A model generated the notes under the pieces. The model had not been told where the DNA came from. It ran no database searches and saw only the letters and a program-made list of their open reading frames with translations. Below, piece after piece: positions 42,131-59,778 of a stretch of 64,000 nucleotides of DNA (within the stretch, counting starts at the first letter, position 1; each line of letters starts with the position of its first letter). Made by a program: the position numbers and the translations under genes. Source of the stretch: Candidatus Nanopelagicales bacterium (lineage in GTDB: Bacteria; Actinomycetota; Actinomycetes; S36-B12; UBA10799); the NCBI GenBank assembly GCA_041674545.1, contig JBAYVO010000001.1, positions 89,057-153,056 of the forward strand, given 5' to 3'.

Positions 42131-42145
42131 GTCAGGGTCCTACCC
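42128..42145 (-). repeat. Start-associated junction motif copy
   Basis: Minus strand GGGTAGGACCCTGACATG. The TAG is the stop of the EndoVII gene. Confidence 0.8.
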
Positions 42146-44125: not shown

Positions 44126-44247
44126 CGGAATTATGCTGGGACTGCTATGTACATCTGATTCGTCAGCGAGTCCGATATTTAAATCGAACCCCGGCCTGCG
44201 CCACGCTGGTTAAAGCGTCATCCGGCTGGCCTACGTGCTAATGCTTA

Positions 44248-44652: not shown

Positions 44653-44698
44653 GTCTAATGCTCCTCAGGAAAAGTCGCTGCCGCCGCGATCAGCCGAA

Positions 44699-46875: not shown

Positions 46876-49800
46876 TCAGTCATCCTCCTCATCAGGGTTC
46901 CACGCGAGCGCTGCCGCCTTGACCTTAGCCAAAGCTTCCGCCTTGCCCGCAGCTACCACGAACCTATCTTCAATCGTCAAACCACGGATGTTTGTTACAC
47001 CCTTGCTCTTCAGGTAGTCGATGAACGCCTGACGTTCCGACTGACTGTTAAACACAGCAAGTTCGATGTCATCCAACACCGAGATTCCATGCTTAATCAT
47101 GGTCTCGTTATGGTCTTGAATGCTGGTAGCTTTCTCTAAGCTAAAATCAGACTTAATTTTACGATTGTCAATTTTACCCCAACCATCGCCCTTAAAGGAA
47201 TAGTTGGTAGTTTTTGCCAACACACGCGGGTTTACATAAATTTGAGAGTAATCAAAGTTATTGCCGGTCTGATTAGTGCGAACAAAGTTAAAATGTCCAG
47301 CGCCGTTAGTAATGTCCGGCGGAGAAGACTGACCTTCAATAACCTTGCCCATCATACGAGGACGCGCTTCGTTCGACCACAGACCGCCCGTACGAAGAAT
47401 CGTACGCATATCACCCATACCGATGGAGTGCGTAGCAAAAGGCTTGTTCTTGAGGTACTCCCAGTCCGCATCAAAACGATCCCAGTACGGGTTGCCGCCG
47501 ACTACCTCAGGACGCGCCACGTTCGGATGCGAGAACTTCGGCATGTACTTCTGCTTATCTACAAACTCTTTAACTTGCTCTTTGCTGGTCAATCGAGACC
47601 ACGCCTCGCGCCAACGCTCCAGCTCTTCTTTAGCCTGAAGCGCAGGAGTGCCCTCCGTGCCGCCCGGCAAATTGTCCCGGACGTAATCCACCACGTCTTT
47701 GTGCTTACCCTGCCCCTGGTCCCTGCGATCCGTGAGCACGCCGTACAGGTGGCGCCAGTAGAACAGCTCCATGTCGGTATCCTCCGCAGCAGACAGGTCC
47801 AATCCCATCTGCTGCAGCGCAGTCATAGCTGCCTCGGTTCCCGTATGCGTGCCGTCGTAGTTGCGCACCTTGATCTTCAGACCGCCCTGCTGAGACCGCC
47901 GCACGCCATCTTCGTCGTGCCACGACCGGTACTCGATTTCTGTACCGTCAGGGAGTTCCACAACATACGTTGTACCCGACTGAAGAATTTGGCTATTCCA
48001 GCCCGATGGCTTAGATCCATTCAGAACCATATTGCCGTCATCGTCGATCGAGCCCTGCTCGTAGTAGGACACAACCTTCTTGACCTTGAAACCGTCCGAC
48101 GGAGCTGCAATCTCCGGCGTGATAGCTGGCCTCTTCGGAGGCTCGAACGGGAACGGGTCAAAATCACCGTGCTTAGACTGACCGCCAAAATCGATTAAAC
48201 GCTGTACGTCTTTGATTTTGCCATCGTAGTACGACAGCAAATTCTTGTACGTTTCCTTGGCTTCTGTCCAGTCAGCAAACTGTGATGGATAAATACCCGA
48301 TTCGACCTCAGCAAGCTTCTTCTCAACATCCGCTTTCATGGTATTAAAATTAGCCATGTGCGACGAGTTGAAGTTTTGATCTCCTAACCCGTTGTGATGA
48401 GAAACAGTCTTAGCAGCAGCAAGCGAGAACTGCGAATAGCTAGTAGCTCCCGCGTTACTCAAAAACTCAGTCTTTTGATAACTGTCTGAAACATCTCCTA
48501 CTGTAACCGTATTGCCAGCGCGAGCCACAAGCCACTTGCGCAACTCCTTGTCCGCCTGCTTACGGACCAGCGCAGTCATATGCAGCTCGGTACCACCCTG
48601 CGACGTCTTCACCTCTTGCGCCAGAACGTAGTTCTCCTCCAGCGCATTGCCGCCAAAGAAAGTAGAAGCTCCCGCATGTCCGGCTTCCTTCACCCGGGTG
48701 AGATGGTCCTCCGAAAACCCGGAGAACACATGCTTGCCGAGGCTCTGGCTCTTGGCTGGCTTCTCGCGACCCAGCTGCGAGTAAATACCGTCCCAGAACT
48801 TCTCAAAATCCTCGGACAATGCGTTCTTACGCGCCAGCGCCTGCGACACCAGGTCAGGCAGATCCTTGGCAGACGTCCATCCAAAGTTGGTGCGGTTCTG
48901 TAATCCCTCAGTGATTGTCGAACCCCAGGACGCATCCGATACCGACGACGTCTTCCGTGCCTGCGCCATAGATGCGAGGTACAACGAGTCCACATCCGCG
49001 TCGGAATACTTTCCTGACAACGCAGCCTTGTAGACCTTGTCGTAGTAAGGGGTGGTCCAGTCGGACAACTGCCCGACCTTCAGCTGCATAGAGCCCGGCT
49101 TGCCGAAACGCACGAAGGAACGGGCGATGTCGATCGGCATCACGCGCTTGCCATCGGGCATCAACAGGAAGTTGTTGCCGTGAGCGTCATCGTTTGCTGT
49201 GGCCCAGTCCTGCACGTGCGCGGCCATCAGATCCTTGAGTGCCGAGATGGGCAGGTCAACAGGATCAGTGTTCATCAAGGTTCCCTGGCTGGGGACCTTG
49301 GCCTGGAACTGGCCGAACTTGCCATTAAACGTTCCCAGCTCCGACGCGGCAACCCGGAATCCCGCAAGCTCCGCCAACTTGTGGCTGGCGTGCTCGATCT
49401 CAGCGCGGAACTTCTCAGGAGCGACCTTGAACAGGAACGGGTTGCCCTGCTCATCGGTCAGCTGCCAGATCTCCGAAGACGAGCCACCACCGAGCGGAGG
49501 CTGCTCCGCATTCATGGTGTAAGTCTTCTTCTCAAGCTTCAACGCATCATGCACAAAGCCCAGCAGTGCAGGAACGTTGTAGTGTGAATCCTCGTAAATC
49601 TTGCCCAGCAAATCCTGCATCTGCTGCTTGGCAAAAGCCGGGCTCTTGAACGTGGCAGAACCTTCAGGGGCCGCAGCTACCGCGTGCAGCGCGACCAGCT
49701 GTGCCTTTACCTCGGGCGTCTGACTAGTCAAGAACTCAACAGACTTGTCACTGACACCAACATGGTTCAAATAAGTATCAAGCTGACTGTTGTTCCATCC

Positions 49801-52800
49801 CTGCACCGCAACCTTGGAATAATCCATTTCAGGAAAACCTTCGGGCAACGGGACTGCATAGCCGGGAGCGTACTTCTCCACTGACGGAAGAATAGGCGAA
49901 GAATGAATGTCGCCCTCGTTGACATTTTTCTGTCCAAGATACGAGAGAGAATCAGTTCCCAGCTTGTTCCCTGAAGCGTGTGCGATTGCCCAAGAACGCT
50001 TTTGGCTACTGCTTAACCCTGTAGGATGCTGCATGTTTGCGGCAAGCAAATACGCATCTACAGTCTCACTCTGCCAAAGATGCCAAGAGTCAGTGTTGGG
50101 CCACGATCCGTCAACTTTGATTCCAGCAGGAATCTCGCCTGAGACTAACGGCGGCATCTTCTTCTTGACGAAGCCGGACGCGTTCACCGGGTTTTCAGGA
50201 GAACCCGGGTGCACCTTGCGCTTACCGTGCTGCTGAACCTTCTTGGACTCGATCTCGTAAGCCTTGTCCCACTCACCGTTGGCCCACGCGTACATCCACG
50301 CGACCAAGTCTTCCTTCTTGGTCGAGCTGTTCAGATGCTTGGCTGCAATGTTCTCGAACCCGGAATCCTTGGCCCACTTCTTCGCAGACGCCAACAGCAC
50401 CGGCTTCTCGACCCAGTCCGGCCTGATGTGCCCCGCCACCATGAACGGCTGCAACACCGGGGCGTCCGCATCGAACATGTGCGACGGCGTAGACGCGACC
50501 GGAGAGTTCTGCGGTGGCACCCAGAACATGTCACCGGACTCCACGGCGTTCATGAACTCATCGATGTCCATGTTTGGGCCACTGGCGTCCAGCGTGACGT
50601 GCATTCCCTCGCCGTCGGTCCAGGTGCCCAGCTGCACCCCATTCCAATAACCGTCCGGCGAGACCTCATCGGGCGCGTCCGGGGTGTTGGGGACCGGGTC
50701 GACCGCAGGAGCCACCGATGGGCCGTCGTAGACGCTGTCGAGCTTGGAGACCAGCTCTTCCGGGCTGTAGACCTTCAGCACCGAGCCATCGGCATCGATC
50801 TTCTGGACGAGACCGTCAGGATCGAACTTGTAGTGCGCCACCTGCGGGGCAGCACCCGTAGACAGCAGGTTCCCCTGGCCCAGGCCAGTCAGATACACAA
50901 ATTGGTTATTCTTCGCAGCAGTCTGGAAAGCCTGCGAGAACGGCGTGGTAGTCGGCGCCCACGCGTCCTGCATAGAAGCGTTGCCTGCTTTGGCTACCAG
51001 GTCGCCCAGGTACGGAGACTGCAACGCAGCGCCCGCCTGATCCTCCAAAGACGGGGGCCCGGAATCCTCCAGATCTCCCTGGAACACCGCCGTATGCGTC
51101 TGGAATGACAGAGTGTCATCCATCAGGTTCATGGCAAAAAACGATGGTGAAATGCCCTCAGGCCCGTTCTCGCCTACCTTGAAAACGTTTCCGTTGTACT
51201 GATGCTTGTAATCGCCGATCAGGAACCCGTTAGGGTCCTTGAGCGCCTCGGTCATCCAAGAGTCCGGACTCACCTGCAACGCCGTGGGAGCAATACCCTC
51301 GCTGGTGAGATAGGGCTTCACCACATCAATATGCGCCATTGACTCACCGGATGGCGTCGCAATGAGCACCGAGCCGTCCGGGTACACGCTGTAAGTAGAA
51401 GTCCCTGAAGCGTAGTGACCGACCTGCACTCGATTCACGTAGACAGCATTAGGATCCGTCGGAAGATCCGACAGCTTATCCCAAGTACCTAACTCAAGCA
51501 TACTCTTGACAAGATCAGAATCTGTCATATGAACAGTCTGACCAGAAGACGTGTTAATGCTGTGCGCTGTTCCGTCCGGGTAGACCTTGAGCGCCATACC
51601 ACCCGGAGAGGTGTAGAACCCGACCTCAGGCAACTCCGAACCCGCAAGATCCGTGCCTAATCCGGAGGTCTGGAACTTGTCACCAATCTTGTCGGCGATC
51701 TGTGCAGAACTCAAATTCTTGAAATCTCCATCGTTGATTTCAACAACAGAGTTCTCTTCAGGATTGATCTCGAAGTAAGTTCCGCCCTCGAAATAACCAT
51801 CATCGGTGTCGATGTACCCGGAAGAACTCCAGAAATGGGTTTCACCAGTCTTGTGCGCCTGCTGGAACGCGTCCGCAAAAGAATTGTCAAAAATGCCATC
51901 CGTGTCCTTGGCATTTTTGACCAATTCCTGCAGCGAAAGAGAACCGCCCGACACGTTGGTGGTCGGCGGACCACTGAAGAAATCTTCCACCGGGTCCGGC
52001 GCGCCCACATCTACAGGAGTGACATCCGGATCCGAATCAGGTCCAGTCACAGGCGTCGGGTTGGACGCCATGTTGTCGGCCTTGCCCTGCAGGACAGCGA
52101 TAACCGCTTCCTTGAGCTTGCCGTAGTGAACCTTGCCGTTACCGCCCTTAAACGGAGCAGACAGCGGGTCCGCCTCGATGAAGGTCTTGAGATCCGCCTT
52201 GGCGAGCGGAGAGTCAATCGCCTTGAGCGGCGCCTTCACGCTAGTAGAGCTGGAATTCTTCACCGCATCGATAGCGTCGAGAATTTCCTGCTTGGTAACG
52301 CTCTTCCCTGCAACGGACACCGTAGACGGAGCAGTCGGCGCTTCCGGCGGATTGTTGAGCTGCAGAACAGCATCGTCCATGTGCTTCTGCAGCGCATCCG
52401 ACACGGCCTGCTTCCACGGCGCCGAGTCCAAATGCGAATCGACACCGAGGCTTGCTCCGAACCCGTTCTGGCCCATTCCCTTGAACGGATGTCCCGCAGG
52501 GAGATGGCCCATCAACGTGTAGAACTGACCATCCGGGTCCAATCCCAGCGGCGGGCCATCCCACAAGCTCTTGAGCAACTGCAGCTCGTTGACGCTGGCC
52601 TCGACAGTACCCAGCTGCACCTTGGGAGAATCATCCGGACCGGGCGTCTCGACAGGACCATTCTGACCTGGACGTGTCTTCACATTCAGATAGTCATTCA
52701 ACCCATCGAACAGCACCTTGTTCATCTCATGAGCCGGAGTACGGCCCACGAACTCGCTCCAGTCCACGCCATACGCGAGCGGGTTATGCCCTACTTGCGC

Positions 52801-55800
52801 CAGCTTGCCGGACATCGTTTCACCCTGATCAAAATCGATGTCGGCAAAAAAGTCCTGCATCTCCTTGATCTGCGCCTGCGACGCCAGCACACCCTGGATA
52901 CCCGGGCTGGCGTGCGGAACCTCGGGCAGATCCGCAGCCGGGTTCGGAACAGGAGGGTGATCTGTCTGGTGCTTATCCAGAGCATCCTGCAGCAGCGCGA
53001 TCACAGCAGGCTTGAGCTTGCCGTAATGAACCTTGCCGTTGCCTCCCTTGAAAGAATCAGTCAACGGAGACGTGTTGGCGTGTCCCTGCAGGTCGACACC
53101 CGACAGCGGGGAACCAATAGCCTTGAGCGGCTTCTTCACACCGGTCTCAGACTTAGGCGACTTCTGCAGCGCGTCAAGCGCTTCCGCCACCGCCTGCGGG
53201 GTGACCGGAACACCGCCGAACGAAATGAAACCCGGAGACGCAGGCGCGTGCGTGTGTCCAGAGCCCTGCGGATCCACCGCGTGCAGCGCAGCGTGGATCG
53301 CTTCATGATCAGAAAGCCCGAGCGAGGACTGATGCTCTTCGAGACCGTGCGACTCCTGCAGGTGCGCCACGGCGGGAGCGGCATCCAACGGCGTAGCACC
53401 GGTCTGCTGATGCGCCTTCTGCAACGCGGCAATCAGAGCAGGCTTGGTCTTGTTGTTGTAGTACGCCTTGTACGGCGCGGCTACCTCGTGGAACTTGCCT
53501 GCCGCCAGCGGGGATCCCACGCGCTTGAGGTCCGCCGCGACGTTGCCCGACGGGTTCGCAGACAGAGCGTTGATCGCCTGCTCCAGCTGCGTCGACGTCA
53601 TCTCGAACCCACCGACCAACGCCTTCCCCGAACCCGGGAGAGGCTGGGTGTTCTGGATCGACACGCCCTCGTCAGTGACGTTGTTGAGGCCCGAAAGCAG
53701 CTGCGCGCGAGCAGCCGGATTGTCCGCGCCGCCGACCTTCTTCGCCTGCACACCCGCGCCCTGCGGGTTGTACTTGATCAGATCACCATCGGGCTGCAGG
53801 ACGTAGAGCGTGTCCTTGGACTTGCCCGACTTGTAGACCTGCGAGCCCTCCTCCATCTGCACGGAGTGCGCGCCGACCGAAAACAACGACGGACCGTTCT
53901 TGACCACACCGCCAGGACCGCCCTCGGGCGCTTCAGGCTGGCTGAACTTCGGACGCACCGGAGCGGACATATCCTCGACGACATCACCGGTCTCAGGGTC
54001 CGTCACCGGCTCGGCATCCGCCGGGACAGCAGGCGCGCGACCGTCGAGACCGAACTCCTTGATGTCTTTTAGAATTCGCTTGTCACGGTTGACATTCAGG
54101 AGACTCTCGGCTTCCTCCACAGAGACCTTCTTGACCGAAGCAGTCTCCGAGCCTCCCGGCTCGTACGGAGAAGCGTCATCGGGCAGCGGCTGACCGCCGG
54201 TCCGCTTTCCGACGTACATGCGGACCTTGCCGCCGCCGGAGCGCTTGAAGTCGCCAAGATATCCGGTGATGTCTCCTTCGAGACCGGTCTCTTCCCACAG
54301 CTCCTTATGTGCGTTCTGCTGCGGAGAAAGATTGGCTTCGATACCGCCCTTGGGAAACGTGTGCTCGTAACCTGCGTAGTGATCCTTGGGCTCGTAAATC
54401 CAGATGTAACCGTCAGGCTCGATCAGCGCGATGCCCGTAGCCATCCGGCCCTCGGTGTCCGGCAACGCAGGCTCACCCGGGATCGCGACATCCGGCTTGG
54501 CCGTGAAGTCCGGCATCTTCTGACCGTTGGCGTTCTTCTTGGACTGCGGACGATCGCCAGGCTCGGAAGTGTTCTGCGATCCCGAGGATCCCGAAGCGTT
54601 CTGCTGTCCAAGGACATTCTGCTGCTCTGGGGCCGGGATTCCCTTGGGGACAGCCTTGCCACGATCGCCGGGCTCGGCCTGATTTGGAATCGACGGAGCT
54701 TCAGGAGCAGAGCCCCCGCCCGCCTTAGACGCGTTGAACTTGCGCTGCCAATCCTCATTGAAATCGTCGTCTTCAACTTCGTCGACATCACCGAGGCTGC
54801 CGTTTGCAATCTGCTTTACCGCCACCTGTTGCAGCGGAAAACTCTTCTTAAAGTCAGACTTGTAAATTTCACCAGTTCCGTCTGGATTAACCTTTACTCC
54901 ACCCCAGTTGGAATTATCAGTGAAAACGTAAGAACCCTCTGGGAGCGTTCCATTCTTCTTCAGATCCTCATTCATTTCCATGAGCGGACCCGGACCATCG
55001 GGATCCGGAACATCAGGATCGTCAGAAATTTTTGTTACTGTTCCGTACTGCTTGTGCAGAGAAAGGAACTGAGCTGTCTTAGCTTTATCGCTATCGACAG
55101 TCTCACCCTTGTGAATAGAAGTAGAAGAACCATCCTGGTGAACAATAACCTGAGTATCTTCATCACCAGGCATGTCAACTTTATAAGTGCCTGGCTTCCA
55201 GTTCAGGTCGATAGAACCGCCCTTGGGCGTGGCCTTATCCGCCGCCTTCTGAGCCTTGTTGATGGCCTTAGCCTGCTTAGCAGAAACCTGCTTCACATTT
55301 GGCGAAGGCAGTGCTCCACCAACATCCGGAATCTTCATTCCAGTCTTAGTGTCGTAGTAATAGCCCGACACGTGCTGAAGATGACCGTTGACCATTCGCG
55401 TGTACGCCTTCACGTGCACGATCGTGGCCGCAATATAGTCGTCTCGATCTTCAGGAGACACAGTCATCGCCCACTTGGCGTACGCCTGCATTCCCTGCGC
55501 GGTCAGTCCGACCGTCGGCGCGCTAGCCGGGAAGTAGATCACCAGCGAGCAGCGACAGTTTGGGTGACGCGGAGGCGTACTCAACACCTTGGTGTAGGGA
55601 ACCGGCTCAGAATCAGGAACCTCGAACGGCTCTCCGAGCGGCACGTGCTGACCGTGCAAACGAGTACACATGGGGCACGGAGGGTTCACCAAATCGAAGC
55701 GAGCCACCCACAGCTTGTGTGCTGTCTCAGAAAGCAGCTCCGCCAACGCTTGCAGGAACTGCTCGGTAGCCGCACCACGACCCGCCTGCACCGCCGAGAC

Positions 55801-56241
55801 AACCGCCAGCTCCGCGCGGCGCAGCATCTCCGCGAGCGCCTTAGCCTTGTCCTTGGCACCCTTGGCTACCGCAACCTGGCCAGCCAGGAAATCCGTGACC
55901 AGCTGCGTGCCCAGCTCCTCGCTGGAGAACACCACCGTGTCCATGAGCGCGGTCGGCAGATCCAACGCCTCCGCCTGCGCCCGGCCGAACCGAGCACCCT
56001 CATCGACACCCGCCGACAGCGCACGACGGATGAGCGCCACCGAACCCGCGAGCAACGCAGTGGTGACCAGCGGAGAGCCATCTTCCTCTGACTGCGCGTC
56101 GGTCAACCGCTGGCCGTAGAGCACCCGCATGTCCGCCACAAACTGCTGCTCCGCCGCAGCCGCGAACGTGCGCGAGGTATCCACCAGACCCAGCAGCTCT
56201 ACGAGATCCTGCTCGATCGGCGTCAAAGCCGGGGTGGTCAC
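46876..56241 (-). CDS. Giant MuF-like minor head protein fusion (3121 aa) with Nudix-like, kinase-like and PARP-like ART-like modules
   Basis: Uninterrupted 9366-nt ORF coupled to the portal gene (TAGTG). MuF/SPP1 gp7 motif PPCPMCTRLHG...PPRHPNCRC at aa 187-231. Nudix-like FPKGGIE...KELWEETGL at aa 629-654. Kinase-like GGGSS...FKV...DDAHGNNFLL...IDIARSF at aa 2250-2376. H-Y-E ART-like motifs at aa 2935-3050. Confidence 0.9.
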   Translation of the reverse strand: MTTPALTPIEQDLVELLGLVDTSRTFAAAAEQQFVADMRVLYGQRLTDAQSEEDGSPLVTTALLAGSVALIRRALSAGVDEGARFGRAQAEALDLPTALMDTVVFSSEELGTQLVTDFLAGQVAVAKGAKDKAKALAEMLRRAELAVVSAVQAGRGAATEQFLQALAELLSETAHKLWVARFDLVNPPCPMCTRLHGQHVPLGEPFEVPDSEPVPYTKVLSTPPRHPNCRCSLVIYFPASAPTVGLTAQGMQAYAKWAMTVSPEDRDDYIAATIVHVKAYTRMVNGHLQHVSGYYYDTKTGMKIPDVGGALPSPNVKQVSAKQAKAINKAQKAADKATPKGGSIDLNWKPGTYKVDMPGDEDTQVIVHQDGSSTSIHKGETVDSDKAKTAQFLSLHKQYGTVTKISDDPDVPDPDGPGPLMEMNEDLKKNGTLPEGSYVFTDNSNWGGVKVNPDGTGEIYKSDFKKSFPLQQVAVKQIANGSLGDVDEVEDDDFNEDWQRKFNASKAGGGSAPEAPSIPNQAEPGDRGKAVPKGIPAPEQQNVLGQQNASGSSGSQNTSEPGDRPQSKKNANGQKMPDFTAKPDVAIPGEPALPDTEGRMATGIALIEPDGYIWIYEPKDHYAGYEHTFPKGGIEANLSPQQNAHKELWEETGLEGDITGYLGDFKRSGGGKVRMYVGKRTGGQPLPDDASPYEPGGSETASVKKVSVEEAESLLNVNRDKRILKDIKEFGLDGRAPAVPADAEPVTDPETGDVVEDMSAPVRPKFSQPEAPEGGPGGVVKNGPSLFSVGAHSVQMEEGSQVYKSGKSKDTLYVLQPDGDLIKYNPQGAGVQAKKVGGADNPAARAQLLSGLNNVTDEGVSIQNTQPLPGSGKALVGGFEMTSTQLEQAINALSANPSGNVAADLKRVGSPLAAGKFHEVAAPYKAYYNNKTKPALIAALQKAHQQTGATPLDAAPAVAHLQESHGLEEHQSSLGLSDHEAIHAALHAVDPQGSGHTHAPASPGFISFGGVPVTPQAVAEALDALQKSPKSETGVKKPLKAIGSPLSGVDLQGHANTSPLTDSFKGGNGKVHYGKLKPAVIALLQDALDKHQTDHPPVPNPAADLPEVPHASPGIQGVLASQAQIKEMQDFFADIDFDQGETMSGKLAQVGHNPLAYGVDWSEFVGRTPAHEMNKVLFDGLNDYLNVKTRPGQNGPVETPGPDDSPKVQLGTVEASVNELQLLKSLWDGPPLGLDPDGQFYTLMGHLPAGHPFKGMGQNGFGASLGVDSHLDSAPWKQAVSDALQKHMDDAVLQLNNPPEAPTAPSTVSVAGKSVTKQEILDAIDAVKNSSSTSVKAPLKAIDSPLAKADLKTFIEADPLSAPFKGGNGKVHYGKLKEAVIAVLQGKADNMASNPTPVTGPDSDPDVTPVDVGAPDPVEDFFSGPPTTNVSGGSLSLQELVKNAKDTDGIFDNSFADAFQQAHKTGETHFWSSSGYIDTDDGYFEGGTYFEINPEENSVVEINDGDFKNLSSAQIADKIGDKFQTSGLGTDLAGSELPEVGFYTSPGGMALKVYPDGTAHSINTSSGQTVHMTDSDLVKSMLELGTWDKLSDLPTDPNAVYVNRVQVGHYASGTSTYSVYPDGSVLIATPSGESMAHIDVVKPYLTSEGIAPTALQVSPDSWMTEALKDPNGFLIGDYKHQYNGNVFKVGENGPEGISPSFFAMNLMDDTLSFQTHTAVFQGDLEDSGPPSLEDQAGAALQSPYLGDLVAKAGNASMQDAWAPTTTPFSQAFQTAAKNNQFVYLTGLGQGNLLSTGAAPQVAHYKFDPDGLVQKIDADGSVLKVYSPEELVSKLDSVYDGPSVAPAVDPVPNTPDAPDEVSPDGYWNGVQLGTWTDGEGMHVTLDASGPNMDIDEFMNAVESGDMFWVPPQNSPVASTPSHMFDADAPVLQPFMVAGHIRPDWVEKPVLLASAKKWAKDSGFENIAAKHLNSSTKKEDLVAWMYAWANGEWDKAYEIESKKVQQHGKRKVHPGSPENPVNASGFVKKKMPPLVSGEIPAGIKVDGSWPNTDSWHLWQSETVDAYLLAANMQHPTGLSSSQKRSWAIAHASGNKLGTDSLSYLGQKNVNEGDIHSSPILPSVEKYAPGYAVPLPEGFPEMDYSKVAVQGWNNSQLDTYLNHVGVSDKSVEFLTSQTPEVKAQLVALHAVAAAPEGSATFKSPAFAKQQMQDLLGKIYEDSHYNVPALLGFVHDALKLEKKTYTMNAEQPPLGGGSSSEIWQLTDEQGNPFLFKVAPEKFRAEIEHASHKLAELAGFRVAASELGTFNGKFGQFQAKVPSQGTLMNTDPVDLPISALKDLMAAHVQDWATANDDAHGNNFLLMPDGKRVMPIDIARSFVRFGKPGSMQLKVGQLSDWTTPYYDKVYKAALSGKYSDADVDSLYLASMAQARKTSSVSDASWGSTITEGLQNRTNFGWTSAKDLPDLVSQALARKNALSEDFEKFWDGIYSQLGREKPAKSQSLGKHVFSGFSEDHLTRVKEAGHAGASTFFGGNALEENYVLAQEVKTSQGGTELHMTALVRKQADKELRKWLVARAGNTVTVGDVSDSYQKTEFLSNAGATSYSQFSLAAAKTVSHHNGLGDQNFNSSHMANFNTMKADVEKKLAEVESGIYPSQFADWTEAKETYKNLLSYYDGKIKDVQRLIDFGGQSKHGDFDPFPFEPPKRPAITPEIAAPSDGFKVKKVVSYYEQGSIDDDGNMVLNGSKPSGWNSQILQSGTTYVVELPDGTEIEYRSWHDEDGVRRSQQGGLKIKVRNYDGTHTGTEAAMTALQQMGLDLSAAEDTDMELFYWRHLYGVLTDRRDQGQGKHKDVVDYVRDNLPGGTEGTPALQAKEELERWREAWSRLTSKEQVKEFVDKQKYMPKFSHPNVARPEVVGGNPYWDRFDADWEYLKNKPFATHSIGMGDMRTILRTGGLWSNEARPRMMGKVIEGQSSPPDITNGAGHFNFVRTNQTGNNFDYSQIYVNPRVLAKTTNYSFKGDGWGKIDNRKIKSDFSLEKATSIQDHNETMIKHGISVLDDIELAVFNSQSERQAFIDYLKSKGVTNIRGLTIEDRFVVAAGKAEALAKVKAAALAWNPDEEDD
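52072..53604 (-). repeat. Three diverged copies of a ~65-85 aa module inside the MuF giant
   Basis: Protein copies are (E/Q)xIxAL...(K/R)xxGSPLA...FKGGNGKVHYGKLK(P/E)AVIA(L/V)LQ at aa ~880-945, 1010-1092 and 1310-1390. DNA identity is visible between cttgagcttgccgtagtgaaccttgccgtt (~52111) and cttgagcttgccgtaatgaaccttgccgtt (~53011). Confidence 0.8.
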
Positions 56242-57866
56242 TACGCACCTGCCATCGCGCTCAAGGCGCTGTCGATCGCGTCACGGTCAGTGTTGTCGAG
56301 AGCGACGAACTCGGGAGCGAGATACGTCGAAGCCGACGGAAGGCCCTCAGAAGACAGCTGAGAGGGCAATGCGGGCAGCTGAGGCGTAGGCGCGGGAGCA
56401 CCCCCCGGAAGCGCAGCCTGACCCGGCATTCCCATGGGCTGGTTACCCGGGATGAACTGCTGCTGCGGGGCCACACCCGGCTGCTGATCTGCAGGCACCG
56501 TAGGGATGGGCTGGAACGGCGGCTCCATCGGAGGGGCTCCGACACCGGCCATGAAGTGCTTCACGGTCTCATCGGTCTGCTTCTTCAGCAGCTCATCGAG
56601 CTTCTCGTACTCGATGTCAAGGCCCATCTCACCCGCCATGTACTTCTCCAGCTCCAGCATGAACCGGCGAGTCACGTTGGCGCCCTGGCCAGCAGAAGAA
56701 AGCTTGTCAAACGTGTTCTTGATGGCCTCTTTTTGCTCTTCAGAAAACGGGCCAAACTTCAGCTTTGGATACTTGTCGTTCTTAAAGTTCCAGTCAATGA
56801 ATCGCGGAGTGAGCCAATCGTTAAAAATAGTTTCTAACTCGTTAATAATGACATTGACCAGCACCAAATACATCGAGTCGTTAGGGCCGCCGAACGACAC
56901 CAACGGAGAACCGCCACCCTGCTGATCGTCCAGGAACGGCGCCAACACCGACTTACTCATCTGGCTGTTGTGGTGATTGATGAAATCCATGAACGGGAAC
57001 TCACCCGGGGAACGGCCGAGATCCTCCACCGACCAGCCAATATCCGGAACCGTCACCGACTGCGCAAGGCCGAAGTCCTGCAACGCCATGCGGAACTGGC
57101 TGATCTCCTTGGGAGAGGCCGACGTCGGGTACTTGCCCAGACGCGACCCCACCGCACGGTGCTGCGCCGCGAGGTGCGCCAAGTAGTACAGCTTGATCTT
57201 CTTATCGTAGTGATAAAAAGCAGCGTTAAAGTAAGAAACTCCGTAGAACGGATTCTCTTCCTCGGAGCACGCGTAATAGATCGAGTTCTTGGCTTCGATC
57301 TTCTCGTCGATGACTCGGCCATTCGGAGTCACGGTGCGCTGACGGAACCCGTCGTACTCACCCTGCTCATCGACCGCGAACGACACAGTATCCGAAGGAC
57401 GATACGCGATCTTGTCGAGCGTGTACTTACCCTCCAGCGGACCCTTGCGCGGGCGCGTGTAGACCAGCTCGAAAGGCGCAAACCCGTCCACCGTCGCCAG
57501 CAGCATCTGCGAGACAACTCGATTGAACGGCGTACGCATACCGCCATTCACCGCAGGCAAGGTGTAGAGATTCGTGATGAACTCCGCCTCCTTGTCCCCG
57601 CCATCCGCCGGAACCCAGGACGCACGCTTCGCCGCCGCGCGGGCGGGCATGGTGAGCAGCCGGTACAGCGCACGCGCCTGGCCATCTTGGCGACGCATCT
57701 CTGTCAGCTGCTTCACCGTGGGAACGTCGTTGCGCCCCAGCAGGTACGAACCCTTGGAGTCGAAGCCCTCGGCGAACGGCATACCCGCCAGCCGAATACC
57801 CATCTCCTCATTAAGCTCAGAGTTTTTGGGCTTGACCATTTCGGTGACATTGTCGGGCTTTGCCAC
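56241..57866 (-). CDS. Portal protein
   Basis: 541 aa between the terminase large subunit and MuF. GGAGG RBS and a Pro/Gln-rich C-terminus. Assigned by synteny and size. Confidence 0.75.
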   Translation of the reverse strand: MAKPDNVTEMVKPKNSELNEEMGIRLAGMPFAEGFDSKGSYLLGRNDVPTVKQLTEMRRQDGQARALYRLLTMPARAAAKRASWVPADGGDKEAEFITNLYTLPAVNGGMRTPFNRVVSQMLLATVDGFAPFELVYTRPRKGPLEGKYTLDKIAYRPSDTVSFAVDEQGEYDGFRQRTVTPNGRVIDEKIEAKNSIYYACSEEENPFYGVSYFNAAFYHYDKKIKLYYLAHLAAQHRAVGSRLGKYPTSASPKEISQFRMALQDFGLAQSVTVPDIGWSVEDLGRSPGEFPFMDFINHHNSQMSKSVLAPFLDDQQGGGSPLVSFGGPNDSMYLVLVNVIINELETIFNDWLTPRFIDWNFKNDKYPKLKFGPFSEEQKEAIKNTFDKLSSAGQGANVTRRFMLELEKYMAGEMGLDIEYEKLDELLKKQTDETVKHFMAGVGAPPMEPPFQPIPTVPADQQPGVAPQQQFIPGNQPMGMPGQAALPGGAPAPTPQLPALPSQLSSEGLPSASTYLAPEFVALDNTDRDAIDSALSAMAGA

Positions 57867-57882
57867 CGACTACCTCCAAAGA

Positions 57883-59778
57883 TTACAGTCCGGGCAACTT
57901 AAAGCTGTTGCCTGTCTGCATGCCGCGCCACACATCCTCCGCTCCAACAGGAGCATCACCGGCCGCGCTCGACACCCAAAACAGGTCTTGGGGGTCTTCG
58001 TCTGGATCCGTCGTCTCCTCGGCCCCGCCCGTCGTCACGGCGGTGATGACCGCGCCGCAGACAGCATCGGATAAATCCTTAGACCCGCCCGGAGGATGAT
58101 CGATCTTGCGCTTCTTGGGATCCTGCTGAAGATGCAGCAGCTCATTGCGCAGCAGACGGCTGTAGGGAATCTCAACCCGACCCTCTTCGACCAGGCTGCG
58201 GAACTGCCGGTACGGCTCATCGGTGCGGTCCATCGACAACAGCGGAGCCTCAATGCCGCCGACCTGAAGGATCTGTCGGTTGTCGACGCTCTGCCATCCG
58301 TCCATCGACGCCGCGCGGATCGGGAAGCCTCGCTGCTGCAGCTCGAACACCAACTGTCGATAGAAGCGAAGCTGGATCTCGCGGGGAGGATCCGATTCCA
58401 GGTCCGCCTCCAGAGCAATTGCGGTGTCCACCTTCACCACCGGGCGCTCATCCCAGACGAGCTGACCGTTGTACTCCGGATCCTTGCGTGCGAACTTGTC
58501 CCAGCTCACGACGTGCGCCATGGCGAACCCGGCACGATCACCGTTAAGCGCAAGGTCGCAGTGAGTGGCATACGTAGCGCCGGGGATAGGCTTCAGCGAC
58601 TGCGGAATGACAAAGCGAGGGTGCCATCCACCCTGCGCGAACTCCCAGTGGACCTCGATCTCGGGAGTGTCGACCATCGCCGAGTCGACCGAATTCTCGG
58701 AACGGAAATACGGCGGGAGCATGGTGCGCTCGGGCATGCACAGATACGCCGCGCGAGCCCATTCCGGTTCCGCCTCGAAGTCCGCCACCAGCTCTTCAGG
58801 AACCGGGACCGGAGAGATCTCCTTCTCCAGCTCCACGAATGTCGTGCGCGCCAGCAGCGGATTGAACTCCCACGACGGCATAGGGCCGACGATGAAGTGC
58901 TTAGAATCCGCACCCTTGCGCTCGATGTCTTGCTTAGACTCAGCATGCAGCTGCAGAATCGGCGATCCGTGATACCGGGGATACGAAATGCGAACGTTCT
59001 TGAATGTTCGTGGAAAACGAGTCACCGCCGAGGAACGCAGCATCTTGATGATGCCCTCCGCAGAACGCATCGGGGTGCGGGTACCGCCGCTTCCCGTGCG
59101 GGCGATGTCATCAGCAGTGCGGAACGCATCGATCTCGTCCGCCACACCGAGAATCAGGTTCAGACCCTCCTGGGTCTCTGCATCCGAGGATCCAGACACC
59201 GACTCCAGGCCACGCGCCCACTCGATCGTATTCTTCTTAGGATCACACTTGTCCGCAAACCACCCCTTGCGGACAATTCGAGTCATAGGCTCGAAATACG
59301 CACGGCGTGCCTGATCCTTGGTAGAAGCCACGTTGAGCATGTGGATCGACTCCGAGGACGGCATGCCGAAGTAATCACGCGGGTCCTTGAGACACAGCAG
59401 CAGATACGAGATGCGCAACGCCATCAGGCGAGCAATCAAGTCCTTGCCGCCACCCTTGCCGACCAGCAACGTCAGGAAGTTCGCCATCGGAATCGGCGCC
59501 CAGTAATCACCGAACTCCGCCTGCATGTGCGGGTACAGCTCCGGGTAATAGACCCGTTCCGCAGCCCGGAGCGCCGTAGCCTGCGGGACAGACAACGGAG
59601 ACATGCCGATGTAATGCTTGTCCGAGATGAAGACGTCCAGCGGGACAGGCTCTTCCGCGAACAAATCATCGCAGACGCCCCGCGCCGTCGACAGACGCTC
59701 TTCCGAACCGAGCTGGCGCAGCCATTGAGCCGGAGTCAGAGCGTCATTCTGCTCAACGGCACGTAGACGAGGGGGCAT
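57883..59778 (-). CDS. Terminase large subunit
   Basis: 631 aa. Walker A LLVGKGGGKD, Walker B-like LILGVADEID, and a C-terminal nuclease-type region. Lies upstream of the portal gene. Confidence 0.85.
   Translation of the reverse strand: MPPRLRAVEQNDALTPAQWLRQLGSEERLSTARGVCDDLFAEEPVPLDVFISDKHYIGMSPLSVPQATALRAAERVYYPELYPHMQAEFGDYWAPIPMANFLTLLVGKGGGKDLIARLMALRISYLLLCLKDPRDYFGMPSSESIHMLNVASTKDQARRAYFEPMTRIVRKGWFADKCDPKKNTIEWARGLESVSGSSDAETQEGLNLILGVADEIDAFRTADDIARTGSGGTRTPMRSAEGIIKMLRSSAVTRFPRTFKNVRISYPRYHGSPILQLHAESKQDIERKGADSKHFIVGPMPSWEFNPLLARTTFVELEKEISPVPVPEELVADFEAEPEWARAAYLCMPERTMLPPYFRSENSVDSAMVDTPEIEVHWEFAQGGWHPRFVIPQSLKPIPGATYATHCDLALNGDRAGFAMAHVVSWDKFARKDPEYNGQLVWDERPVVKVDTAIALEADLESDPPREIQLRFYRQLVFELQQRGFPIRAASMDGWQSVDNRQILQVGGIEAPLLSMDRTDEPYRQFRSLVEEGRVEIPYSRLLRNELLHLQQDPKKRKIDHPPGGSKDLSDAVCGAVITAVTTGGAEETTDPDEDPQDLFWVSSAAGDAPVGAEDVWRGMQTGNSFKLPGL

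What the first reader, a model, noticed from the sequence alone, without database searches (positions are those of the whole stretch)
54052..54450. Nudix-like box inside the MuF giant
Residues ~598-730 read GIALIEPDGYIWIYEPKDHYAGYEHTFPKGGIEANLSPQQNAHKELWEETGLEG...VRMYVG. K-E-L-W-E-E-T-G-L fits the R-E-U-x-E-E-x-G-U core of the Nudix box, preceded by PKGGxE. The first consensus Glu is not in register (Leu/Ser) and Arg is Lys, so activity is uncertain. A Nudix (NDP-X/ADP-ribose pyrophosphatase-type) module on the same polypeptide as an ART-like module would link NAD cleavage products to their hydrolysis.
Basis: partly seen in the sequence, partly recalled or inferred. Interest (0 to 1): 0.6.

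Follow-up and report, generated by a model that had tools for sequence, protein, structure and literature searches.

The report
Nudix enzyme in phage head giant
The flagged stretch encodes a real and probably active Nudix pyrophosphatase domain inside a 3,121-residue phage head protein that looks built to be injected into the host; this general design is already known from comparative genomics, but nobody has tested what this Nudix subfamily cleaves.

Summary
Observation confirmed. Window 54052-54450 (minus strand) encodes residues 598-730 of a 3,121-aa ORF (46876-56241). These residues match Pfam NUDIX above threshold (41.6 bits, cut-off 21.1, E 1.5e-10, almost the full profile). They fold into a high-confidence Nudix model (pLDDT 93.4).

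They fall at positions that vary across the subfamily. E647, E650, E651, G632 and G653 are invariant in 96 relatives, so activity is likely.

The closest solved relatives are Ap4A/ApnA hydrolases and RppH, not ADP-ribose pyrophosphatases.

The host protein is a MuF-anchored "polyvalent" head protein of a roughly 186-kb, actinophage-like siphovirus. Its layout is MuF, Nudix, long spacer, atypical kinase-like domain, then a C-terminal domain with a weak but consistent ART (DarT-like) fold.

Among the 143 top representatives carrying this Nudix subfamily, 123 also have the kinase-like domain. 82 have either a classical ART or the DarT-like domain, never both. In three Gram-negative phages the same set is split across neighbouring genes.

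So the link to an ART is recurrent, but the substrate is unknown. Nudix fused to MuF has been described before (Iyer et al. 2017, 2022). I file this as a new member of a known kind, of moderate interest.

The parts
46876..56241 (-). 3,121-aa ORF (GTG start, overlapping the portal gene's stop by 1 nt): the MuF-anchored polyvalent head/effector protein that contains the finding.
   Evidence: Full-length orthologues P0183 (3,121 aa, about 50-52% identity) and P0161 (3,568 aa). Called as one 3,121-aa gene with a NUDIX hit on ENA contig k141_2474284.
55525..55914 (-). MuF (phage head morphogenesis, SPP1 gp7/Mu F-like) domain, aa 110-239: the presumed capsid anchor.
   Evidence: Pfam PF04233 20.8 bits, below its 29.6 cut-off. 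PHROG head-morphogenesis/portal/minor-head families at E 3e-9 to 5e-3. BLASTP 3e-12 to the separate 265-aa Magritte gp15. Local HMM E 3e-36.
54451..54684 (-). Low-complexity Pro/Gly/Gln/Ser-rich linker before the Nudix domain (aa 520-597). Its last ~25 residues (PDFTAKPDVAIPGEPALPD) are a remnant of the subfamily's conserved N-terminal extension.
   Evidence: Read directly from the sequence. It is the least conserved segment between orthologues, 29-40% identity.
54052..54450 (-). Nudix hydrolase domain, aa 598-730 (Pfam match aa 600-725 = window 54067-54444).
   Evidence: 64-65% identical between orthologues, against 52% for the whole protein.
54280..54348 (-). Nudix box, aa 632-654: GGIEANLSPQQNAHKELWEETGL. 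Catalytic-helix core KELWEETGL is at 54280-54306. Leu638 replaces the first consensus Glu and Lys646 replaces Arg.
   Evidence: Column counts in 96 relatives: G632, E647, E650, E651 and G653 are 96/96; position 638 is L39/E15/A14; position 646 is K55/R36.
48796..49461 (-). Atypical protein-kinase-like domain, aa 2261-2482 (CtkA/HipA/actin-fragmin-kinase-like). The catalytic-type Lys, Asp, Asn and Asp are invariant in the family alignment.
   Evidence: Pfham-level support is weak: Pfam HipA_C hit E 0.0045. Local HMM E 2.5e-60, present in 123 of 143 Nudix-bearing representatives. Invariant K26/D106/N111/D125. Profile against the PDB gives only marginal hits: CtkA 0.027, LepB 0.098, AFK 0.099. 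66-70% identical between orthologues.
46954..47484 (-). C-terminal domain, aa 2920-3096: probable ART-superfamily (DarT-like) fold with conserved G-x-S-x3-D, FTR and NE motifs.
   Evidence: No Pfam or PDB sequence hit. Shared by 15 other Nudix-bearing giants and never found together with a classical ART. AF2 pLDDT 66.9, pTM 0.69. Foldseek top hits are all ART superfamily but weak.
56241..57866 (-). Portal protein gene immediately upstream (context).
   Evidence: phrog_113 portal, E 4.6e-30.
57883..59778 (-). Large terminase gene (context).
   Evidence: tblastn 40.6% identity to the Microbacterium phage Magritte terminase, E 4e-123.
43103..45898 (-). Downstream head genes (context): 399-aa protease/scaffold-like gene (44699-45898) and major capsid protein (43103-44125).
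   Evidence: phrog_328 E 4.3e-6 and phrog_29 E 3.4e-43. Pfam Phage_cap_E and HDPD on the contig's called genes.

Best explanation
Shown: residues about 598-730 form a genuine Nudix pyrophosphohydrolase domain with an intact catalytic helix. It belongs to a distinct subfamily found mainly in phages and mobile elements. The subfamily box is G-x5-[L/E/A]-x7-[K/R]-E-x2-E-E-x-G-L. Its closest solved relatives are Ap4A/ApnA hydrolases.

Shown: the domain is one module of a 3,121-aa protein encoded between the portal gene and the protease/capsid genes of a large siphovirus-like, actinophage-related phage. The layout is MuF head domain, Nudix, about 1,500-aa spacer, atypical kinase-like domain, then a C-terminal ART-like (DarT-like) domain.

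Inferred: MuF anchors the protein inside the capsid. The protein is ejected into the host with the DNA, like other 'polyvalent' head proteins and T4 Alt. There the Nudix module cleaves the pyrophosphate bond of an adenine-nucleotide NDP-X compound at the very start of infection.

My committed guess for the substrate is a broad dinucleotide or nucleoside-polyphosphate range of the ApnA / NAD(H) / ADP-ribose type, as measured for phage T4 NudE. This would remove host nucleotide alarm or immune signals, or nucleotide caps on RNA, while the kinase-like and ART-like modules modify host macromolecules.

Confidence by step:
- Nudix identity: about 0.95.
- Catalytically active: about 0.75.
- Virion-packaged and injected: about 0.65.
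- Substrate class as stated: about 0.35.
For: Domain identity: Pfam above its cut-off, PHROG nudix families, AF2 pLDDT 93.4 and a Nudix-only Foldseek list.

Activity:
- E647/E650/E651/G653/G632 are invariant in 96 relatives, and a downstream Glu (E699) is nearly invariant.
- KELWEETG is identical in the two roughly 50%-identical orthologues.
- The Nudix segment is more conserved (64-65%) than the whole protein (52%) and than the flanking linker (29-40%).
- The deviant positions 638 and 646 vary freely across the family.

Lineage: the subfamily profile matches Aquifex Ap4A hydrolase 3I7U full-length at 89 bits, E 3.7e-24. Next come MutT1/Rv2985 diadenosine polyphosphatase and the Ndx1 Ap6A hydrolase. 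Foldseek gives the same order.

Head-effector context:
- Gene order is terminase, portal, giant, protease/scaffold, capsid, with MuF evidence.
- Of 37 Nudix-bearing giants scanned with Pfam, the head-domain families hit were Phage_Mu_F in 7 members, Phage_portal_3 in 5 and Phage_min_cap2 in 4 (per-family member counts, which may overlap). ART families were hit in 7 (ADPrib_exo_Tox) and 3 (ART) members, and one member carries the anti-CBASS nuclease Acb1.
- The nearest GenBank phage homologue, Yersinia phage fHe-Yen8-01 gp131 (45% identity), is annotated by its depositors as a particle-associated protein, as is the neighbouring giant ART.

Published inference: phage Nudix domains fused to MuF or portal are packaged and injected to counter NAD/ADPr-derived signals (PMC9503650). 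Polyvalent proteins are described in PMC5512222.

Substrate precedent: T4 NudE is annotated as active on FAD, diadenosine polyphosphates, ADP-ribose and NADH. It decaps NAD-RNA in vitro (bioRxiv 10.1101/2024.04.04.588121).
Against: - No biochemistry exists for any member of this subfamily.
- Arg to Lys and loss of the first Glu could lower or change activity.
- The phage is known only from a metagenome contig, so packaging is inferred from gene order, the MuF fusion and annotation of distant relatives. I found no paper for the Yersinia phage proteomics.
- MuF scores below Pfam's cut-off.
- Standalone relatives also occur in apparently cellular or mobile-element contexts, so the subfamily is not exclusively a virion effector.
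- Similarity to T4 NudE is only superfamily-level: hhalign E 7e-9 over 71 columns, nothing by BLASTP.
Confidence: 0.6

Rival explanations
1. ADP-ribose-centred coupling. The Nudix works downstream of the ART module of the same polyprotein. Either it destroys free ADP-ribose and NAD-derived immune signals, or it trims ADP-ribosyl marks written by the ART down to phosphoribosyl marks that host macrodomain/ARH enzymes cannot remove.
For: - Recurrent fixed-order architecture Nudix-kinase-ART: 43 Nud-Kin-ART, 11 MuF-Nud-Kin-ART, 10 Kin-Nud-ART. 82 of 143 carry an ART-type end.
- The same set is split into adjacent genes in Yersinia, Pseudomonas and Morganella phages.
- One standalone homologue lies near SIR2 and an ADP-ribosylglycohydrolase.
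- Nudix enzymes can convert protein-ADP-ribose to phosphoribose in vitro (title and abstract of PMC4680915, listed).
- T4 NudE accepts ADP-ribose.
- Iyer et al. propose phage Nudix domains counter soluble ADPr derivatives.
Against: - The nearest solved relatives are ApnA hydrolases and RppH. ADP-sugar pyrophosphatases match only the box, at 29 bits, and are absent from the top 50 structural matches.
- There is no proline about 16 residues after the box, the ADPRase signature as I recall it from Dunn et al. 1999. Position +16 is Gly670.
- ARTs are the commonest enzyme in polyvalent proteins anyway (PMC9503650), so co-occurrence alone is weak evidence.
- The Nudix is more tightly linked to the kinase-like domain (123 of 143, median gap 65 aa) than to the ART.
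Confidence: 0.25
2. RNA 5'-end pyrophosphohydrolase (RppH/NudE.1-like). The injected Nudix removes triphosphate, NAD or Np4A caps from host transcripts to trigger their decay, giving early host shut-off.
For: - The best NCBIfam partial matches are RppH models, E 4e-6 but far below cut-off.
- RppH structures are among the Foldseek and profile hits.
- Viral precedents: T4 NudE.1 decaps NAD-RNA in vitro. Poxvirus and algal-virus Nudix enzymes decap host mRNA (as summarised in PMC9503650).
Against: - RppH scores well below Ap4A hydrolase: 31 against 89 bits, and only over the N-terminal half.
- No RNA-binding extension is evident.
- NCBIfam scores are 26 bits against cut-offs of 116 or more.
Confidence: 0.15
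3. Catalytically dead ligand-binding module. The Nudix fold is kept as a nucleotide sensor or scaffold (as in NrtR-type regulators) that regulates the neighbouring kinase-like or ART-like domains.
For: Two consensus box residues are changed: Glu to Leu and Arg to Lys. The subfamily is tightly juxtaposed with the kinase-like domain. In P0146 it is apparently inserted between the kinase lobes.
Against: All three helix glutamates and both glycines are invariant in 96 sequences, and the downstream Glu is nearly so. Sensor Nudix domains typically lose these (my own knowledge of NrtR). 36 of 96 relatives still have Arg and 15 have the first Glu, so the changes look like tolerated variation.
Confidence: 0.07
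4. Housekeeping nucleotide-pool sanitation (MutT-like) for phage DNA replication, with no effector role. The fusion to MuF is incidental.
For: MutT1/MutT2-type enzymes are among the structural neighbours. Generic source annotations of relatives read 'MutT'.
Against: The domain sits in a structural-module gene fused to MuF, between effector-type domains. Relatives are fused to portal, MuF, ART, phosphatase and Acb1 domains. This makes no sense for a replication-phase housekeeping enzyme. MutT proper scores poorly: NCBIfam 18 bits against a 148-bit cut-off.
Confidence: 0.05

Closest known systems
Aquifex aeolicus Ap4A hydrolase aq_158 (PDB 3I7U/3I7V), with the related diadenosine-polyphosphate Nudix enzymes M. 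smegmatis MutT1 / M. tuberculosis Rv2985 and T. thermophilus Ndx1
   Same: Best match by single sequence (1.1e-7), by subfamily profile (89 bits, E 3.7e-24, full length including the C-terminal WE...LL...DK motif) and by fold (E 1e-11, TM 0.72-0.79). It shares the FPKG-x-x-E ... [R/K]E-V-W-E-E-T-G box context.
   Different: - Only about 27% identity.
- The window domain has Leu for the first box Glu and Lys for Arg.
- It carries a subfamily-specific N-terminal extension remnant.
- It is an internal module of a 3,121-aa phage protein rather than a free 134-aa enzyme.
- Its substrate is untested.
Phage T4 NudE (e.1 / NudE.1)
   Same: A phage-encoded Nudix with a similar PKG-R-x-E...LS...A-x-[R/K]-E-x-x-E-E-T-G box region (alignment). 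It is encoded next to internal virion protein genes and lysozyme. It has a broad adenine-dinucleotide range and NAD-cap activity. It is cited as the type of the clade that Iyer et al. found fused to MuF and portal.
   Different: Similarity is only superfamily-level: hhalign 95.8%, E 7e-9 over 71 columns, and no BLASTP alignment. T4 NudE is a free 151-aa protein. I could not test whether the window's subfamily is the 'T4-like' clade of that paper.
Polyvalent proteins / MuF-fused head-packaged effectors (Iyer, Burroughs, Anantharaman, Aravind 2017, PMC5512222; Iyer et al. 2022, PMC9503650)
   Same: A giant multidomain phage protein with an N-terminal MuF, encoded beside the portal, combining ART-type, kinase-type and nucleotide-processing domains. 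The 2022 paper explicitly notes Nudix domains fused to MuF, portal and the capsid protease, and predicts packaging and injection.
   Different: The text of those papers, as far as I could search it, does not describe the fixed Nudix / atypical-kinase / ART set, nor the swap of classical ART for a DarT-like end domain. 'Nudix' occurs once in the 2017 paper, in another context. No 'kinase' passage in the 2022 paper concerns it. The 2017 kinase family is reported mainly from Verrucomicrobia-Chlamydia and Bacteroidetes, whereas this phage is actinophage-like.
Standalone virion Nudix proteins of ~90-kb Gram-negative phages (Yersinia phage fHe-Yen8-01 gp131, Pseudomonas phage Dolphis gp119, Morganella phage Mecenats66 ORF52)
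   Same: These are the closest GenBank phage homologues, at 36-45% identity over about 130 aa with the same Leu/Lys box variant. They sit two genes downstream of a giant protein that carries the same kinase-like domain and a classical ART. gp129, gp130 and gp131 are annotated as particle-associated.
   Different: There the Nudix is a separate 247-282-aa protein with a full ~140-aa N-terminal extension, and the ART is the classical R-S-E type (Pfam ADPrib_exo_Tox). In the window everything is fused to MuF and the end domain is DarT-like.
Legionella SidE-family effectors (mART + phosphodiesterase on one polypeptide) - a 'works like' analogy only, from my own knowledge
   Same: An injected multidomain effector in which an ART domain and a domain that cleaves the ADP-ribose pyrophosphate/phosphodiester act in sequence on the same mark. 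This is the precedent for the novel reading below.
   Different: There is no homology: the SidE PDE is not a Nudix. No evidence here shows that the two modules act on a common substrate.

Membership tests
Nudix hydrolase superfamily (Pfam PF00293) | Profile match above the curated gathering score over most of the domain | tested here: met
   41.6 bits in the full protein and 46 bits in the excised segment, against a 21.1-bit cut-off. Profile positions 4-132 of 134.
Nudix hydrolase superfamily (Pfam PF00293) | Nudix box GX5EX7REUXEEXGU | tested here: inconclusive
   7 of 9 specified positions are present (G632, E647, L648, E650, E651, G653, L654). The first Glu is Leu638 and the Arg is Lys646. 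Both deviant positions vary within the subfamily (L39/E15/A14 and K55/R36), while the others are 96/96.
Nudix hydrolase superfamily (Pfam PF00293) | Alpha/beta/alpha Nudix fold with the box forming a loop-helix-loop | tested here: met
   AF2 pLDDT 93.4, pTM 0.88, with helix 51-63 of the model covering the box. Foldseek PDB gives 530 hits at E<=0.001, and the whole listed top 50 are Nudix enzymes.
Nudix hydrolase superfamily (Pfam PF00293) | Metal-dependent hydrolysis of a nucleoside diphosphate linked to X | not testable with these tools
   Needs an enzyme assay. Only conservation of the catalytic glutamates supports it.
ADP-ribose pyrophosphatase subfamily of Nudix | Closest sequence and structure relatives are ADPRases / ADP-sugar pyrophosphatases | tested here: not met
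   ADP-sugar pyrophosphatases score 29 bits over the box only, against 89 bits for Ap4A hydrolase. None appear in the Foldseek top 50. NudE ADP-compounds hydrolase scores 17.8 bits against a 169-bit cut-off.
ADP-ribose pyrophosphatase subfamily of Nudix | Conserved proline about 16 residues downstream of the box (rule recalled from Dunn et al. 1999; not re-checked in a paper here) | tested here: not met
   Residues +1 to +30 after Leu654 are EGDITGYLGDFKRSGGGKVRMYVGKRTGGQ. The first Pro is at +31, and +16 is Gly670.
Ap4A/ApnA-hydrolase-like Nudix clade (Aquifex aq_158 type) | Full-length profile and fold similarity to characterised ApnA hydrolases | tested here: met
   3I7U at E 3.7e-24 full length and Foldseek E 1e-11. 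This shows relatedness, not substrate.
Ap4A/ApnA-hydrolase-like Nudix clade (Aquifex aq_158 type) | Hydrolysis of diadenosine polyphosphates | not testable with these tools
Polyvalent / MuF-fused head-packaged phage effector proteins | N-terminal MuF (head morphogenesis) domain | tested here: inconclusive
   Pfam 20.8 bits, below the 29.6 cut-off. But seven PHROG head-morphogenesis or minor-head families plus one portal family match at E 3e-9 to 5e-3. BLASTP gives 3e-12 to Magritte gp15, and the CxxC...HPNCRC motif is present.
Polyvalent / MuF-fused head-packaged phage effector proteins | Encoded in the head module next to portal and terminase | tested here: met
   Terminase 57883-59778, portal 56241-57866, giant, protease/scaffold 44699-45898, capsid 43103-44125, all on the minus strand.
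Polyvalent / MuF-fused head-packaged phage effector proteins | Several unrelated effector-type enzymatic domains in one polypeptide | tested here: met
   Nudix, kinase-like and ART-like. The last two rest on weaker evidence.
Polyvalent / MuF-fused head-packaged phage effector proteins | Physically present in virions and delivered into the host | not testable with these tools
   Only indirect evidence: depositors' 'particle associated' annotation of distant homologues.
ART superfamily (C-terminal domain aa 2920-3096) | ART fold and NAD-binding catalytic motifs | tested here: inconclusive
   No Pfam or PDB sequence hit. The model has pLDDT 66.9. Foldseek hits are consistently ARTs but weak: DarT E 8e-3, TM about 0.4; BFVD best E 8.7e-4. 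Conserved R (FTR), S..D and NE residues are present. The domain occupies the same terminal slot as the classical ART and never co-occurs with it.

The most novel reading that the evidence does not exclude
The recurrent Nudix / atypical kinase / ART set is not a random bag of effectors. It may be one co-evolved, sequentially acting machine injected by many unrelated phages. For example, the ART writes ADP-ribose on a host protein or, if DarT-like, on DNA. The Nudix then cuts the mark to phosphoribose, making it irreversible to host macrodomain/ARH erasers. This would be a Nudix-based analogue of the SidE mART+PDE logic. The kinase-like domain would either prime the target or use the released nucleotide.

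Nothing here excludes this reading. It is suggested by:
- the fixed domain order;
- the 65-aa median Nudix-kinase spacing;
- one case of a Nudix apparently inserted between the kinase lobes;
- the mutually exclusive swap of classical ART for a DarT-like domain;
- the preservation of the set as neighbouring genes in Gram-negative phages.
Probability: 0.15. Interest if true: 0.8.

Novelty: new member of a known kind. Interest (0 to 1): 0.45.

Why it matters
Injected head proteins act before any phage gene is expressed. They are therefore a phage's first answer to host immunity, much of which runs on NAD-derived and other nucleotide signals.

This Nudix subfamily is large. An exhaustive search found 2,322 cluster representatives at E<=0.001 and 613 at E<=1e-30. 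Most of the top 150 are embedded in proteins of 900-6,330 aa. None has been characterised biochemically.

Knowing its substrate would show what host molecule these phages need to destroy in the first seconds of infection. It would also show whether the conserved partnership with a kinase-like and an ART domain reflects one pathway. Cultured relatives (Yersinia phage fHe-Yen8-01, Pseudomonas phages Dolphis and Jeremy, Morganella phage Mecenats66) make this directly testable.

For this window taken alone, the result mainly confirms that a correctly spotted motif is a real domain of a kind already predicted in the literature.

Tried and rejected
- The plus-strand reading of the given coordinates gives only stops. 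The feature is on the minus strand.
- Megablast of the whole gene against GenBank phages found no match. tblastn of the first 3,000 aa found that only the Nudix segment has GenBank phage homologues.
- The word-indexed protein search with the Nudix segment alone gave only 4 hits. With a profile it gave 135 hits, all short standalone proteins. This wrongly suggested the fusion was unique until the exhaustive HMMER search showed that giants dominate.
- The word-indexed search with the C-terminal domain found nothing.
- PDB sequence searches with the C-terminal region gave only noise, both as a single sequence and as a profile. The kinase-like region gave noise as a single sequence and only marginal hits as a profile.
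- ADPRase membership was considered and rejected on profile, fold and the downstream-proline rule.
- Close kinship to T4 NudE was considered. Only superfamily-level similarity was found.
- Papers: nothing is held for fHe-Yen8-01. The Mecenats66 paper does not discuss ORF50-52.
- Genome contexts of two standalone homologues were mixed and not clearly phage. One looks like a T4SS-type mobile element. The other is a SIR2 / ADP-ribosylglycohydrolase / WYL neighbourhood. I did not use them as support for virion delivery.
- Self-BLAST of the giant reported no internal repeats, although two ~85-aa modules sharing GNGKVHYGKLK are visible by eye and by regex.

Full report
**1. The observation**

The coordinates 54052-54450 translate to nonsense on the plus strand. 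On the minus strand they lie in one ORF, 46876..56241, of 3,121 codons with a GTG start that overlaps the stop of the upstream gene by one base. The quoted peptide is there. GIALIEPDG starts at residue 603 and VRMYVG ends at 678. KELWEETGL is residues 646-654 (window 54280-54306) and is the only match to the core pattern in the protein.

The 23-residue box reads GGIEANLSPQQNAHKELWEETGL (aa 632-654). The GX5E glutamate position holds Leu638, and the Arg position holds Lys646.

**2. Is it more than a motif?**

Yes, on three independent lines.

- Pfam NUDIX (PF00293) scores 41.6 bits against a gathering cut-off of 21.1 (E 1.5e-10). The match covers aa 600-725 and profile positions 4-132 of 134.
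- Four PHROG 'nudix hydrolase' families match. The best solved-structure sequence match is the Aquifex aeolicus Ap4A hydrolase, at 1.1e-7.
- An AlphaFold2 model built on a 96-sequence alignment has mean pLDDT 93.4 and pTM 0.88, with the expected strand-helix-strand order. Foldseek against the PDB returns 530 matches at E<=0.001, and the whole listed top 50 are Nudix enzymes.

**3. Is it likely to be active?**

In the 96-sequence alignment of relatives, G632, E647, E650, E651 and G653 are invariant (96/96). A downstream glutamate (E699 here) is nearly invariant.

The two 'wrong' positions are simply variable in this subfamily. Position 638 is Leu in 39, Glu in 15 and Ala in 14 sequences. Position 646 is Lys in 55 and Arg in 36. 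An acidic residue three positions after the first Gly (E635) is present in 92 of 96.

Two full-length orthologues from metagenomes are about 50-52% identical overall: P0183 (3,121 aa) and P0161 (3,568 aa). In the Nudix segment they are 64-65% identical, against 29-40% in the preceding linker. KELWEETG is unchanged in both, while position 638 is Tyr in one of them. This is the pattern of a domain under purifying selection on its catalytic helix. Activity itself cannot be shown here.

**4. Which kind of Nudix?**

A profile of the subfamily matches the Aquifex Ap4A hydrolase (3I7U) over its full length at 89 bits (E 3.7e-24). Next come mycobacterial MutT1/Rv2985 (a diadenosine polyphosphatase), the Thermus Ndx1 Ap6A hydrolase and DR1025, then RppH, Dcp2 and the DIPPs. 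ADP-sugar and ADP-ribose pyrophosphatases reach only 29 bits, over the box alone. Foldseek gives the same ranking, with no ADPRase in the top 50. NCBIfam gives only sub-threshold partial hits, best to RppH.

The proline about 16 residues after the box that marks ADPRases (recalled from Dunn et al. 1999) is absent. The domain therefore belongs with the ApnA-hydrolase/RppH side of the superfamily rather than with ADPRases.

That is relatedness, not substrate. T4 NudE shares a similar PKGR-x-E...LS...[R/K]E-x-x-EETG region. Its GenBank record describes it as acting on FAD, diadenosine polyphosphates, ADP-ribose and NADH, and it decaps NAD-RNA in vitro. T4 NudE is related to the window's domain only at superfamily level.

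**5. What carries it?**

The minus-strand neighbours, in gene order, are:
- large terminase (40.6% identical to that of Microbacterium phage Magritte);
- portal;
- the giant itself;
- two small ORFs;
- a protease/scaffold-like gene, a decoration-like gene and the major capsid protein.

Further on lie a 3,292-aa tape measure protein and tail genes. The window is part of ENA metagenome contig k141_2474284 (186,198 bp), on which the same 3,121-aa gene was called.

The giant's N-terminus (aa 110-239) is MuF-like. It scores below Pfam's cut-off (20.8 against 29.6 bits). However, eight PHROG head-morphogenesis, minor-head or portal families support it, and BLASTP gives 3e-12 to the separate 265-aa gp15 of Magritte.

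The only part of the giant with homologues in GenBank phages is the Nudix segment.

**6. The wider family**

The exhaustive HMMER search found 2,322 cluster representatives at E<=0.001 and 613 at E<=1e-30. Most of the top 150 are large proteins of 900-6,330 aa with the Nudix domain internal. One has five tandem copies.

Pfam scanning of 37 of them gave these per-family member counts:

| Pfam family | Members of 37 |
|---|---|
| NUDIX | 37 |
| ADPrib_exo_Tox | 7 |
| Phage_Mu_F | 7 |
| Phage_portal_3 | 5 |
| Phage_min_cap2 | 4 |
| ART | 3 |
| Tyrosine/dual-specificity phosphatase families | 2 each |
| Acb1 (anti-CBASS), DUF2213, HAD, SelO | 1 each |

I then built local HMMs for four domains and scanned the 143 new representatives:
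- A kinase-like domain is present in 123.
- A classical R-S-E ART is present in 67.
- The window's C-terminal domain is present in 15.
- The last two never occur together, so 82 carry one or the other.

The commonest architectures are Nud-Kin-ART (43), Nud-Kin (27), MuF-Nud-Kin-ART (11), Kin-Nud-ART (10) and MuF-Nud-Kin-DarT-like (5, including the window). The median Nudix-kinase gap is 65 aa; in the window it is about 1,530 aa.

**7. The other modules of the window's giant**

The kinase-like domain (aa 2261-2482) has an invariant Lys, Asp, Asn and Asp in the order of protein-kinase catalytic residues. It has only marginal profile hits, to H. pylori CtkA (0.027), Legionella LepB (0.098), actin-fragmin kinase (0.099) and HipA, plus a weak Pfam HipA_C hit. 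I call it kinase-like, not proven.

The C-terminal domain (aa 2920-3096) has no sequence-level match anywhere. A 16-sequence alignment gave a mediocre model (pLDDT 66.9, pTM 0.69). Its Foldseek matches are nevertheless almost all ART-superfamily proteins:
- in the PDB, DarT (E 8e-3, prob 0.98), SopF, KptA/Tpt1, cholera and pertussis toxins, and OspC3/CopC;
- in BFVD, granulovirus ORF32/ORF30, a phage 2'-phosphotransferase, a phage DarT and a PARP domain.

Iyer et al. relate a baculovirus ORF28 family to DarT. I did not test whether the granulovirus ORF32/ORF30 hits belong to that family.

The domain occupies the slot that the classical ART holds in relatives. On that basis I accept 'ART-like module on the same polypeptide' as probable, at about 0.6.

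**8. Independent support for a Nudix-kinase-ART unit**

The best GenBank phage homologues of the Nudix segment have 36-45% identity and the same Leu/Lys box variant. They are separate 247-282-aa proteins: Yersinia phage fHe-Yen8-01 gp131, Pseudomonas phage Dolphis gp119 and Morganella phage Mecenats66 ORF52.

In all three phages the gene lies two genes downstream of a giant protein of 2,146, 1,222 or 1,238 aa. That giant carries the same kinase-like domain (E about 1e-62) and a Pfam-confirmed ADPrib_exo_Tox domain. In the Yersinia phage record the giant, the small middle protein and the Nudix protein are all annotated as particle-associated. I found no paper describing that proteomics.

Fused in one lineage and adjacent in another is the classical signature of functional linkage.

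**9. Mechanism**

*Shown:* a Nudix domain with an intact catalytic helix; its ApnA-hydrolase-like lineage; the MuF-portal gene context; the multidomain layout; the recurrent association with kinase-like and ART-type domains.

*Inferred from established knowledge:* MuF fusions and polyvalent proteins are thought to be packaged in the head and ejected with the DNA (PMC5512222, PMC9503650). T4 Alt is the experimental precedent cited there.

*Inferred by me:* the Nudix module cleaves an adenine-nucleotide NDP-X compound immediately after ejection. The likely range is broad, of the ApnA/NAD(H)/ADPR type. It would remove host nucleotide signals or caps while the other modules modify macromolecules.

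*Rivals:*
- RNA decapping (0.15);
- an inactive sensor (0.07);
- pool sanitation (0.05).

**10. Comparison with what is known, and novelty**

The idea that phage Nudix domains are fused to MuF, portal or the capsid protease, packaged and injected to counter NAD/ADPr-based immunity is stated explicitly by Iyer et al. 2022. Polyvalent proteins with ARTs and truncated kinases were described in 2017. The public pipeline that called this contig's genes already attached PF00293 to the product. The finding is therefore a new member of a known kind.

I did not find two things in the searchable text of those papers or elsewhere. One is the fixed Nudix / kinase-like / ART set. The other is the replacement of the classical ART by a DarT-like domain. 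These could still be in figures or supplements that I cannot see.

**11. Verdict**

Interest is moderate at 0.45. It is a correct call on a real domain in an interesting but already-predicted class of phage protein. It has a testable open question (the substrate) and a possibly new conserved three-enzyme cassette.

Noticed in passing
Related proteins P0121-P0263; window giant aa 574-733, 2261-2482, 2920-3096: A recurrent, fixed-order Nudix / kinase-like / ART cassette. Of 143 representatives, 123 have the kinase-like domain, 67 a classical ART and 15 the window's DarT-like end domain. The two ART types never occur together.
   Followed up: partly
P0121 (1,905 aa), Nudix copies between about aa 600 and 1,600: One relative carries five tandem copies of the Nudix domain, each with its ~90-aa N-terminal extension (HP..G..V.I..P..PS...W..P...F.P.G..P..LNG...). 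Pfam reports 5 stretches at E 5e-57.
   Followed up: no
P0146 (1,835 aa), aa ~1270-1650: The Nudix domain (1340-1484) appears to be inserted between the N-lobe-like segment and the catalytic-loop part of the kinase-like domain. The kinase HMM aligns only from position 81 onwards, after the Nudix. This hints at tight physical coupling.
   Followed up: no
Alignment A3 members: Among 37 Nudix-bearing giants, one also contains an Acb1 anti-CBASS nuclease domain (E 3e-35), two contain tyrosine/dual-specificity phosphatase domains, two contain inteins, and one has a weak SelO hit. This is consistent with an anti-defence or host-takeover toolkit.
   Followed up: no
window 52957-53214 and 52057-52314 (minus strand; giant aa ~1010-1095 and ~1310-1395): Two ~85-aa repeated modules of unknown function share ...VKxPLKAIxSPLxxxDL....PL...FKGGNGKVHYGKLKxAVIAxLQ... 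They are seen by eye and by regex but were not reported by self-BLAST. They are conserved in orthologues P0183 and P0161.
   Followed up: no
P0161 (orthologue, 3,568 aa), aa ~530-900: This orthologue has an extra ~370-aa insertion between MuF and Nudix. The insertion contains an HEMGH zincin-type metallopeptidase motif and is absent from the window's protein. It shows modular gain and loss within this lineage.
   Followed up: no
window 16237-26115 (minus strand): A 3,292-aa tape measure protein, implying a very long tail. Its C-terminal third matches endolysin, transglycosylase and LysM PHROGs.
   Followed up: no
window 42140-42973 (minus strand): A 277-aa endonuclease VII/HNH-type gene sits inside the structural module just downstream of the major capsid gene.
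   Followed up: no
window 61730-62413 (minus strand): A 227-aa collagen-like/tail-fibre-like protein is encoded upstream of the terminase, away from the tail module.
   Followed up: no
L001 (Microbacterium phage Magritte) 10993-11790 and 12048-18023: In the nearest cultured relative by terminase, MuF is a separate 265-aa protein (gp15). A 1,991-aa 'hypothetical protein' (gp17) occupies the giant's position. It has no Nudix, only a near-threshold GNAT hit. The effector load of this slot evidently differs between related phages.
   Followed up: partly
L007/L008 (JGI metagenome contigs carrying standalone homologue P0036): A standalone member of the Nudix subfamily lies in a neighbourhood with SIR2, an ADP-ribosylglycohydrolase, a WYL regulator, NERD/UvrD and PD-(D/E)XK genes. 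This looks like an NAD/ADPr-flavoured defence or mobile island rather than a phage head module.
   Followed up: no
L002 7079-7558, L003 5088-5591, L004 5187-5675: A conserved ~160-aa protein with no Pfam match sits between the giant kinase+ART gene and the Nudix gene in all three Gram-negative phages. It is annotated as particle-associated in the Yersinia phage. I did not check whether it has a counterpart inside the fused giants.
   Followed up: no
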